Source of the DNA: a virus
Lineage: Duplodnaviria; Heunggongvirae; Uroviricota; Caudoviricetes
Reading direction: 5' to 3' (one strand)
Virus record (IMG/VR): IMGVR_UViG_2579778748_000005
Length of the DNA stretch: 45,520 nucleotides
The position numbers and the translations under genes were made by a program. Each line of letters opens with the position of its first letter. Position 1 is the stretch's first letter. The notes beneath the pieces are model-generated. The model had not been told where the DNA came from. It saw nothing but the letters and a program-made list of their open reading frames with translations, and made no database searches. Shown piece after piece: positions 2,463-2,897 of this stretch.

Positions 2463-2897
2463 ATGATTGATAAAGCTTGTTTTGTAAGTCAGCAGGAAAT
2501 AGCTGAACATTTCAAGGTTAACAGAACCACTATTCGCGCATGGACCAAACAGGGGATGCCGTATCTTAATGCGGATCGCGGAAAGTCTGGCGGTTATCAC
2601 ATCGGGCATACATTGCTTTGGTCTTCAGGTAAAAGCCGTCTTGAGGCCATCAGATATCACGTAGAAACCAGTGCGCTGGAAAAAATTATGTTTGCCAGGC
2701 TGCTTTCATCTGAGCGTGACGAGTACTCCAGTGAAGAAACAGAACATCGATTTGATGAAGGTTTGCAGATTTACGGCTATTCACCGGAAGATGTGAGCAA
2801 GGCACGAAATAAAATGGCTGGCTTTCTGGCTGGGTGGCGTCATGCCGTAAGCGTTCGCCGTGCCAGCATGGAGCAATCAGCCGATACAGAACAGTAA
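2463..2897 (+). CDS. Small terminase-like protein with Nu1-type winged-HTH N-terminus, 144 aa (Rpp-like candidate)
   Basis: N-terminal ~55 aa (VNRTTIRAWTKQGMPYLNADRGKSGG) closely parallels lambda Nu1 (ASIRTIQNWQEQGMPVLRGGGKGN); C-terminal half unrelated to the Nu1 gpA-interaction region. Confidence 0.8.
   Translation: MIDKACFVSQQEIAEHFKVNRTTIRAWTKQGMPYLNADRGKSGGYHIGHTLLWSSGKSRLEAIRYHVETSALEKIMFARLLSSERDEYSSEETEHRFDEGLQIYGYSPEDVSKARNKMAGFLAGWRHAVSVRRASMEQSADTEQ

What the first reader, a model, noticed from the sequence alone, without database searches (positions are those of the whole stretch)
2463..2897. Satellite small terminase with a Nu1-type DNA-binding domain but no recognisable large-terminase interaction domain
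Seen: the N-terminal about 55 aa align convincingly with the lambda Nu1 winged HTH, while the remaining about 90 aa show none of the C-terminal motifs present in the prophage Nu1 (LSxQRxFP, LLDEYI). Established: E. coli PICIs are known to encode TerS-like Rpp proteins that redirect helper packaging. Inference: this protein is an Rpp-like redirector or decoy rather than an autonomous TerS. Its recognition helix differs from the resident prophage Nu1, suggesting different site specificity.
Basis: partly seen in the sequence, partly recalled or inferred. Interest (0 to 1): 0.55.

Follow-up and report, generated by a model that had tools for sequence, protein, structure and literature searches.

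The report
Known satellite packaging redirector RppA
This gene encodes RppA, an already characterised protein of an E. coli phage-parasitic island that captures the helper phage's small terminase and redirects DNA packaging to the island. The gene itself is ordinary, but its second flanking cos site copies the packaging site of the neighbouring prophage.

Summary
The ORF at 2463-2897 (+, 144 aa) is real. Its product is 100% identical to RppA (c1503) of the E. coli island EcCICFT073, the founding member of the Rpp family (Fillol-Salom 2019). Residues 7-47 match Nu1-type small terminases (PHROG 57, E=4e-8; BLASTP to lambda Nu1, E=3e-6). The rest lacks the Nu1 C-terminal motifs that the resident prophage TerS carries. 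The protein matches the RppC crystal structure sequence at E=5e-31. The Rpp interpretation is therefore correct, and already known.

The context gave three extra results. The gene lies between two inward-facing cos sites, the published cos1 and cos2. In this lineage (15 of 56 island-bearing complete genomes) the 813-bp cos1-rppA-cos2 cassette is inverted relative to CFT073. The cosB of cos2 is homologous to the cosB of the prophage in this same window: 84% identity, with three CCGGRCAT elements at identical positions. It is 96% identical to the cosB of PhiR12 phages. That prophage's 169-aa TerS has a different DNA-binding domain from the lambda/21 type that RppA resembles. Sister islands carry other prophage-type cosBs at the same position. 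This suggests that cos2 serves a second helper family, but that role is untested.

The parts
2463..2897 (+). rppA coding sequence (144 aa plus stop). N-terminal winged HTH at about residues 1-64; C-terminal helical dimerisation region.
   Evidence: ORF. (100% identical to the CFT073 protein). (RppC 6HLK, E=5.3e-31, residues 2-125). (Nu1-type N-terminus only).
2331..2408 (+). cos1 arm: the cosQ-like GGGTCCT, cosN (cohesive-end sequence GGGCGGCGACCT at 2362-2373) and the first 35 nt beyond it. It points rightwards into rppA.
   Evidence: inverted repeat I1: 78 nt, 91%. (exact cosN; 3 in the window against 0.3 expected). (sequence). cos1 is published. The rppA ATG lies at bp 102 from the cohesive end, as stated for PICI-C.
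2409..2426 (+). Position of the proposed Rpp-binding site R3-PICI (bp 48-65 from the cohesive end; AGGTGACACCACCACCAC). It lies just inside the unique part of the cassette.
   Evidence: The position is taken from Murialdo and Feiss 2022. The sequence was read. Binding was not tested here.
3066..3143 (-). cos2 arm: cosQ-like sequence, cosN (3101-3112 on the - strand) and proximal sequence. It points leftwards into the cassette.
   Evidence: cos2 is published as functional but dispensable.
2966..3065 (-). cosB of cos2. It carries three CCGGRCAT elements at +51 (inverted; + strand 3055-3062), +110 (2996-3003) and +140 (2966-2973) from the cohesive end.
   Evidence: identity matrix; the motif is at the same three positions in cos2, the resident prophage and PhiR12_1, and absent from lambda, the CFT073 icd prophage and cos1..
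2331..3143 (.). cos1-rppA-cos2 cassette, inverted here relative to CFT073 and strain 042.
   Evidence: the flanks align in reverse to CFT073, the cassette aligns forward. (gene orientations). (15 genomes against 41). (positions 2353-3143 are 100% identical to CFT073).
1543..12269 (.). The EcCICFT073-family island (PICI) between phoQ and roxA. It is bounded by direct repeats at 1543-1617 and 12195-12269. Genes: int 10944-12194(-), alpA-like 10391-10579(-), primase 6695-8449(-), SSB, PerC, capsid 3946-5001(-), decoration 3599-3934(-), 137-aa protein 3173-3586(-).
40866..41570 (-). Resident lambdoid (potB-site) prophage: cosN at 41559-41570, a cosB of the cos2 type, and a 169-aa TerS at 40866-41375.

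Best explanation
The gene encodes RppA, the 'redirecting phage packaging' protein of an EcCICFT073-family phage-inducible chromosomal island. The following mechanism is established for this exact protein sequence by others. RppA has a winged-HTH domain that mimics the DNA-binding domain of lambda/phi80/21-type small terminase, and a C-terminal helical dimerisation region. It has no TerL-binding domain. It heterodimerises with the helper's TerS. The mixed complex no longer recognises the phage cosB, so phage packaging is blocked. It does recognise the island's own cosB next to cos1, and the TerS partner brings in TerL to cut cosN and package the island. Shown here: sequence identity, domain content, and the position of the start codon 102 bp from the cos1 cohesive end, inside an island with the expected gene set. 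Inferred here: the protein is still expressed and active in this lineage, although its cassette is inverted.
For: The protein is 100% identical to CFT073 WP_000565609.1, which lies between the 137-aa gene and the 93-aa gene next to phoQ. RppA = c1503 and is 144 residues long. RppC (6HLK) matches at E=5.3e-31 over residues 2-125. The proposed DNA-contact residues R21, T22, R25, K29 and K41 of RppC are conserved; R30 is Q and K39 is R (alignment; residue list). Only the N-terminal 40-60 residues resemble Nu1-type TerS. The N-terminus is closer to the lambda/21-type DNA-binding domain (local scores 62-65) than to the other TerS domain types tested (28-33). cosN lies at 2362-2373, the start codon at bp 102, and the cosB differs from phage cosBs. 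The island context includes int, alpA, primase and att repeats. Published genetics and structures.
Against: Nothing contradicts the identification. There are three caveats for this locus. First, rppA is on the opposite strand from the rest of the island, whereas the family is described as unidirectionally transcribed. Only a weak promoter-like site (2411-2438, 9 of 12 matches, not above shuffled expectation) travels with the cassette. Expression is therefore unverified. Second, the only prophage in the window has a TerS with a different DNA-binding domain. A weak alignment places S and P at the positions of lambda E65 and R70, and changes at those positions (E65K; R70P in phi80) let phages escape RppA. 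This prophage may therefore not be an RppA target. Third, RefSeq annotates the gene only as 'hypothetical protein'.
Confidence: 0.95

Rival explanations
1. An autonomous island-encoded small terminase that binds TerL itself and replaces the helper's TerS.
For: The N-terminal domain is homologous to Nu1-type TerS. The gene sits just downstream of a cos site, as Nu1 does in lambda. A sister island (L007) carries a genuine full-length 180-aa TerS at the same position.
Against: No profile or alignment covers the Nu1 C-terminal TerL-binding region. A phi80 terS deletion abolishes island transfer, so the phage TerS is required (Table 1). Murialdo and Feiss find no conserved TerL-binding segment in Rpp proteins.
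Confidence: 0.02
2. A MerR/BldC-like HTH transcription regulator of island genes, unrelated to packaging.
For: There are weak hits to generic HTH families and to BldC (Pfam E=0.002-0.07; NCBIfam HTH_BldC E=0.003, 17 bits against a cut-off of 77). The RppC fold resembles MerR/BldC.
Against: All these hits are far below their thresholds. The specific hits are to RppC and to Nu1-type TerS. Published escape mutations map to terS and published binding is to TerS.
Confidence: 0.01
3. In this lineage the gene is a stranded or silenced copy. Inversion of the cassette uncoupled rppA from the island's rightward transcription, so the island here depends on cos2 and the neighbouring prophage rather than on RppA.
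For: rppA is convergent with the capsid operon only in this lineage. No strong promoter is found inside the cassette. A hairpin followed by a T-run (3150-3166, - strand, part of a -18.3 kcal/mol fold) separates the 137-aa gene from the cassette. cos2 matches the resident prophage's cosB.
Against: The ORF, its Shine-Dalgarno sequence and cos1 are intact, and positions 2353-3143 are 100% identical to CFT073. The same hairpin also precedes the cassette in the CFT073/042 orientation. rppA is therefore unlikely to depend on simple read-through in either orientation. Four of the 15 lineage genomes lack a second cos2-type site.
Confidence: 0.15

Closest known systems
RppA (c1503) of EcCICFT073, E. 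coli CFT073 (Fillol-Salom et al. 2019, Mol Cell; PMC6739421)
   Same: Identical amino-acid sequence (144 of 144). Same island family, same integration site next to phoQ, same cos1 and cos2. The cassette from 2353 to 3143 is identical at the DNA level.
   Different: The cos1-rppA-cos2 cassette has the opposite orientation relative to the island backbone. The backbone is about 95% identical. The cosQ side of the arm next to the 137-aa gene is of the 042 type rather than the CFT073 type.
RppC (PDB 6HLK; complex with lambda TerS 1-98, 6HN7)
   Same: Homologous over residues 2-125 (E=5.3e-31). Same winged HTH, with most of the proposed DNA-contact residues conserved.
   Different: RppC has 153 residues against 144 here. 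The C-terminal dimerisation helix is poorly conserved. Published work shows that RppA and RppC do not heterodimerise, and that RppC binds TerS more tightly.
Lambda Nu1 / small terminase family (PF07471, PHROG 57)
   Same: N-terminal winged-HTH DNA-binding domain (about 30% identity). The gene lies immediately downstream of cosN-cosB.
   Different: There is no central self-association region or C-terminal TerL-binding region, and the Pfam score is below threshold. The recognition-helix residues differ, and so does the cognate cosB.
SaPI Ppi plus SaPI TerS (Gram-positive PICIs). Resemblance taken from the paper's discussion, not tested here.
   Same: A satellite protein binds the helper's TerS and blocks phage packaging.
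   Different: SaPIs use two proteins and pac packaging. Rpp combines interference and redirection in one protein and uses cos packaging.

Membership tests
Rpp (redirecting phage packaging) proteins of Gram-negative cos PICIs | Sequence homology to RppA/RppB/RppC | tested here: met
   100% identical to the CFT073 protein at the rppA position. RppC 6HLK matches at E=5.3e-31.
Rpp (redirecting phage packaging) proteins of Gram-negative cos PICIs | N-terminal winged HTH that mimics the lambda-type TerS DNA-binding domain, with no TerL-binding C-terminus | tested here: met
   PHROG 57 matches residues 7-47 only. BLASTP to lambda Nu1 gives E=3e-6. The Nu1 C-terminal motifs are absent.
Rpp (redirecting phage packaging) proteins of Gram-negative cos PICIs | Encoded just downstream of an island cos site that has phage-like cosQ and cosN but a non-phage cosB | tested here: met
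   cosN lies at 2362-2373 and the ATG at bp 102. The cos1 cosB is only 57-60% identical to the five other cosBs compared (island cos2, resident prophage, CFT073 icd prophage, lambda, PhiR12_1), which is background level.
Rpp (redirecting phage packaging) proteins of Gram-negative cos PICIs | Located in a PICI (int, alpA, pri-rep, att repeats, no lysis or tail genes) | tested here: met
Rpp (redirecting phage packaging) proteins of Gram-negative cos PICIs | Binds helper TerS, blocks phage packaging and promotes cos1-dependent island packaging | not testable with these tools
   Published for the identical protein. Not measured in this strain.
Phage small terminase, Nu1 family (PF07471) | Full-length match, including the oligomerisation and TerL-binding regions, above the Pfam gathering score | tested here: not met
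   14.7 bits against a cut-off of 30, residues 8-40 only. By contrast, the resident prophage TerS matches PF07471 at E=1e-18 over its residues 49-150 only (profile positions 62-163 of 164), and matches PHROG 57 over its full length (residues 1-169).
MerR/BldC-type HTH regulators | Family-level profile match | tested here: not met
   MerR_1 scores 16.6 bits against a cut-off of 21.6. HTH_BldC scores 17.4 bits against a cut-off of 77.

The most novel reading that the evidence does not exclude
The cos1-rppA-cos2 cassette may be a modular packaging unit with two specificities. In this reading, cos1 plus RppA hijacks helpers with a lambda/phi80/21-type TerS. cos2 is a cognate cos, without need of Rpp, for a second and very common lambdoid family, the potB-site prophage type with a 169-aa TerS, one of which lies in this window. 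Sister islands swap in the cosB of other TerS families, or a complete terS gene, between the same conserved cosQ-cosN arms. The arms also allow the cassette to invert, by homologous recombination or by terminase cutting at both cosN sites followed by re-annealing of the two like cohesive ends. [quoted passage not shown] The helper function of cos2 and the mechanism of inversion are inferences.
Probability: 0.4. Interest if true: 0.55.

Novelty: already known. Interest (0 to 1): 0.3.

Why it matters
The flagged protein adds nothing new. It is the type member of a characterised family, and the main practical point is that RefSeq still labels it 'hypothetical protein'. The context matters more. 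The authors who discovered Rpp could not find a phage cosB in the island, and they left the role of the second cos site open. Here cos2 proves to be a near-copy of the cosB of a prophage family found in about a fifth of complete E. coli genomes, including the prophage next to the island in both this strain and CFT073. If cos2 works with that family, these islands have a wider helper range than assumed. Island spread would then be harder to predict from Rpp-TerS compatibility alone.

Tried and rejected
(1) Autonomous TerS: rejected. There is no C-terminal Nu1 region, and published work shows dependence on the phage terS.

(2) Generic HTH regulator: rejected. All such hits are far below threshold.

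(3) Inversion as an assembly artefact: rejected. Fifteen independent complete genomes share it.

(4) Inversion as an actively flipping switch: not supported. Every genome with this exact island backbone has the same orientation, and the other orientation occurs only on diverged backbones.

(5) cos2 as a chance resemblance to the prophage cos: rejected. It is 84% identical to the resident prophage and 96% identical to PhiR12_1 over +13..+150, against 56-61% to lambda, the CFT073 icd prophage and cos1. The motifs are also co-positioned.

(6) Phage-collection searches for the second cosB of sister islands: no match for NCTC86 and only a weak match for L007. The E. coli genome search was needed to find the prophage counterpart.

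(7) Literature on the PhiR12 phages: nothing found.

(8) Strong sigma-70 promoter for rppA inside the cassette: none above shuffled expectation.

(9) Large protein-database searches and structure prediction were not run, because 100% identity to RppA made them unnecessary.

Full report
**1. What is at the coordinates**

The + strand carries an ORF from ATG 2463 to the stop ending at 2897 (144 aa). It lies in a 10.7-kb island bounded by 75-nt direct repeats at 1543-1617 and 12195-12269. The island sits between phoQ (1-1461) and roxA. It encodes an integrase, an AlpA-like protein, a D5/primase, SSB, PerC, a gpE-like capsid protein and a gpD-like decoration protein. This is the gene set of the Gram-negative PICI EcCICFT073.

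**2. The observation**

The N-terminal resemblance to Nu1 is above chance.
- PHROG 57 (Nu1-type small terminase) matches at E=3.9e-8, but only residues 7-47 against profile positions 12-52 of 199.
- BLASTP to lambda Nu1 gives E=3e-6, 30% identity, residues 8-71 against 3-55.
- Pfam Phage_Nu1 is below threshold (14.7 bits against a cut-off of 30).

The window's prophage TerS (40866-41375, -, 169 aa) matches PHROG 57 over its full length. It carries LSMQRQFPDL and LLDEYI, and the target has neither.

**3. Identity**

The protein is 144/144 identical to CFT073 WP_000565609.1. That protein lies between the 137-aa gene and the 93-aa gene next to phoQ. In Fillol-Salom et al. 2019 (PMC6739421), c1503 = RppA and has 144 residues. 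phmmer against PDB sequences finds RppC (6HLK/6HN7) at E=5.3e-31 over residues 2-125. The proposed DNA-contact residues R21, T22, R25, K29 and K41 are conserved; R30 is Q and K39 is R. The start codon is 102 bp from the first base of the cohesive end at 2362, the spacing stated for PICI-C.

**4. Mechanism, as published for this exact protein**

- RppA binds lambda/phi80 TerS. Escape mutations are V3I, A55V and E65K in lambda, and D68G, L69R and R70P in phi80.
- It blocks phage packaging but not replication or lysis.
- It is required for island transfer.
- It raises transfer of plasmids carrying cos1, but not cos2 or phage cos sites. Swapping cosB regions maps this specificity to the cosB of cos1.
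- A phi80 terS deletion abolishes transfer. TerS is therefore still needed, presumably to bring in TerL.

Murialdo and Feiss (PMC9026076) place the likely Rpp site at bp 48-65 (here 2409-2426) and note that Rpp proteins lack a TerL-binding segment.

**5. The two cos sites**

cosN (GGGCGGCGACCT) occurs three times in the window, against 0.3 expected by chance:
- 2362-2373 (+), which is cos1;
- 3101-3112 (-), which is cos2;
- 41559-41570 (-), which belongs to the prophage.

cos1 and cos2 form a 78-nt inverted repeat (2331-2408 and 3066-3143; 91% complementary; the first 47 nt are identical). Their cosB sides face inward toward rppA. The existence of two cos sites is published. [quoted passage not shown]'. 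The word 'inverted' does not appear in the main text of either primary paper or of the review.

**6. Inversion**

Against CFT073, window 1-2395 and 3079-8776 align in reverse, but 2332-3143 aligns forward. In CFT073 and strain 042, rppA is co-oriented with the capsid genes. Here it is on the opposite strand.

Junction-spanning queries find the window-type junction in 15 complete genomes and the CFT073-type junction in 41. All 15 carry this exact island backbone at 100% identity, and no genome with that backbone has the other orientation. The inversion is therefore real but looks like one fixed event, not a demonstrated switch.

Positions 2353-3143 are identical to CFT073. The outer, cosQ-side part of each arm stays with its flank. 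The exchange therefore lies within the 47-bp identical stretch that includes cosN. Homologous recombination fits this. So does cutting at both cosN sites, which would leave the middle fragment with two like cohesive ends able to re-anneal either way. That second mechanism is my inference.

The family is described as unidirectionally transcribed. Only a weak promoter-like site lies inside the cassette, so expression in this lineage is unverified.

**7. What cos2 is**

Identity over +13 to +150 from the cohesive end:

| Compared with cos2 | Identical / aligned |
|---|---|
| Window prophage | 117/139 (84%) |
| Phage PhiR12_1 | 133/139 (96%) |
| Lambda | 87/147 |
| CFT073 icd-site prophage (21-like TerS) | 92/150 |
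| cos1 | 83/148 |

The motif CCGGRCAT lies at +51 (inverted), +110 and +140 in cos2, the window prophage and PhiR12_1. It is absent from the three other cos regions compared (lambda, the CFT073 icd prophage and cos1). By my recollection these positions resemble those of lambda R3, R2 and R1.

In PhiR12 phages and in an O157:H7 EDL933 prophage, this cosB sits about 50 nt upstream of a 169-aa TerS. The EDL933 TerS has the same RefSeq accession (WP_000235436.1) as the TerS annotated in strain WP4-S17-ESBL-08, a genome of the window lineage. In alignment A2, PhiR12_1's TerS is identical to the window's. The first 113 nt of this cosB occur in 1185 of 5426 complete E. coli genomes.

CFT073 carries the same prophage at potB, next to the island. 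That probably explains why a comparison limited to lambda, phi80 and 'phage 4' found no phage cosB.

The RppA N-terminus is closest to the lambda/21-type DNA-binding domain (local scores 62-65) and not to the 169-aa type (33).

**8. Sister islands at phoQ keep the same arms but change the contents**

- NCTC86 has cos1-rpp plus a second cosB with GTTGTTGT-type repeats. That cosB matches (83%) a prophage cosB upstream of a 159-aa TerS in O103:H2 strain 12009.
- The 159-aa and 169-aa TerS proteins share a near-identical C-terminal part and differ in the DNA-binding domain.
- Z1323HEC0423 has a full 180-aa TerS between two further cosB types.

This modularity supports the idea that the second cos serves a second helper family.

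Forty-four of the 60 island-bearing genomes listed have an extra cos2-type site, against 21% of other genomes. This comparison is not corrected for shared ancestry.

Evidence against the idea: in CFT073, deleting prophage 4 abolishes transfer, while deleting prophages 1, 2 or 5 does not. The potB prophage is probably 'phage 2' (my inference from chromosome order). It is therefore not a sufficient helper in CFT073.

**9. Verdict**

The new leads come from the context. cos2 is a copy of a common prophage family's cognate packaging site, and the cassette is inverted in one lineage.

Noticed in passing
window 2331-3143: The cos1-rppA-cos2 cassette is inverted relative to CFT073 and strain 042. The window-type junction occurs in 15 complete E. 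coli genomes, all with an identical island backbone. The CFT073-type junction occurs in 41, on diverse backbones. The breakpoints lie within the 47-bp identical part of the inverted repeat, which contains cosN.
   Followed up: yes
window 2966-3100 (-) compared with 41420-41558 (-): The cosB of island cos2 is homologous to the cosB of the prophage in the same window (84%), and 96% identical to that of the PhiR12 phages. Three CCGGRCAT elements lie at +51, +110 and +140. This cosB type occurs in 1185 of 5426 complete E. coli genomes, upstream of a 169-aa TerS.
   Followed up: yes
L007 2600-3600; L008 2600-3500; L009 2474-3207: Sister islands at the phoQ site keep the two inward-facing cosQ-cosN arms but carry different contents. 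One has a full-length 180-aa TerS. Another has rpp plus a second cosB that matches prophages with a 159-aa TerS.
   Followed up: partly
window 40866-41375 (-); L009 2728-3207: The 169-aa and 159-aa prophage TerS proteins are near-identical from about residue 60 onward, but have unrelated N-terminal DNA-binding domains, each paired with its own cosB type. This points to module swapping among lambdoid terminases.
   Followed up: partly
window 3101-3112 (-) and 41559-41570 (-): The prophage cosN and the island arm next to the 137-aa gene have the same orientation and lie 38,470 bp apart, about 79% of the lambda genome length by my recollection. CFT073 has a similar arrangement. In-situ packaging from the prophage cos to the island cos is geometrically possible. 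The published finding that an int deletion abolishes transfer argues against any measurable contribution.
   Followed up: no
window 3173-3586 (-): The 137-aa protein downstream of the capsid and decoration genes matches the C-terminal part of head-maturation-protease/scaffold profiles (PHROG 53 positions 495-567, E=1.7e-10; PHROG 1999, E=4e-65). With its gpE-like and gpD-like genes, the island therefore carries a small capsid-related module. Published deletions of c1499 and c1500 gave no phenotype.
   Followed up: partly
window 3150-3171 (-) and 5414-5443: A GCCGG-loop-CCGGC hairpin followed by a run of six T on the - strand lies between the 137-aa gene and the cos arm. A similar copy lies after the PerC region. 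Both look like terminators, although the simple terminator scan did not list them.
   Followed up: no
window 2016-2297 (-): A 93-aa conserved protein of unknown function (PHROG 1561, E=4e-54) lies between the cassette and the att site next to phoQ, in all island variants examined.
   Followed up: no
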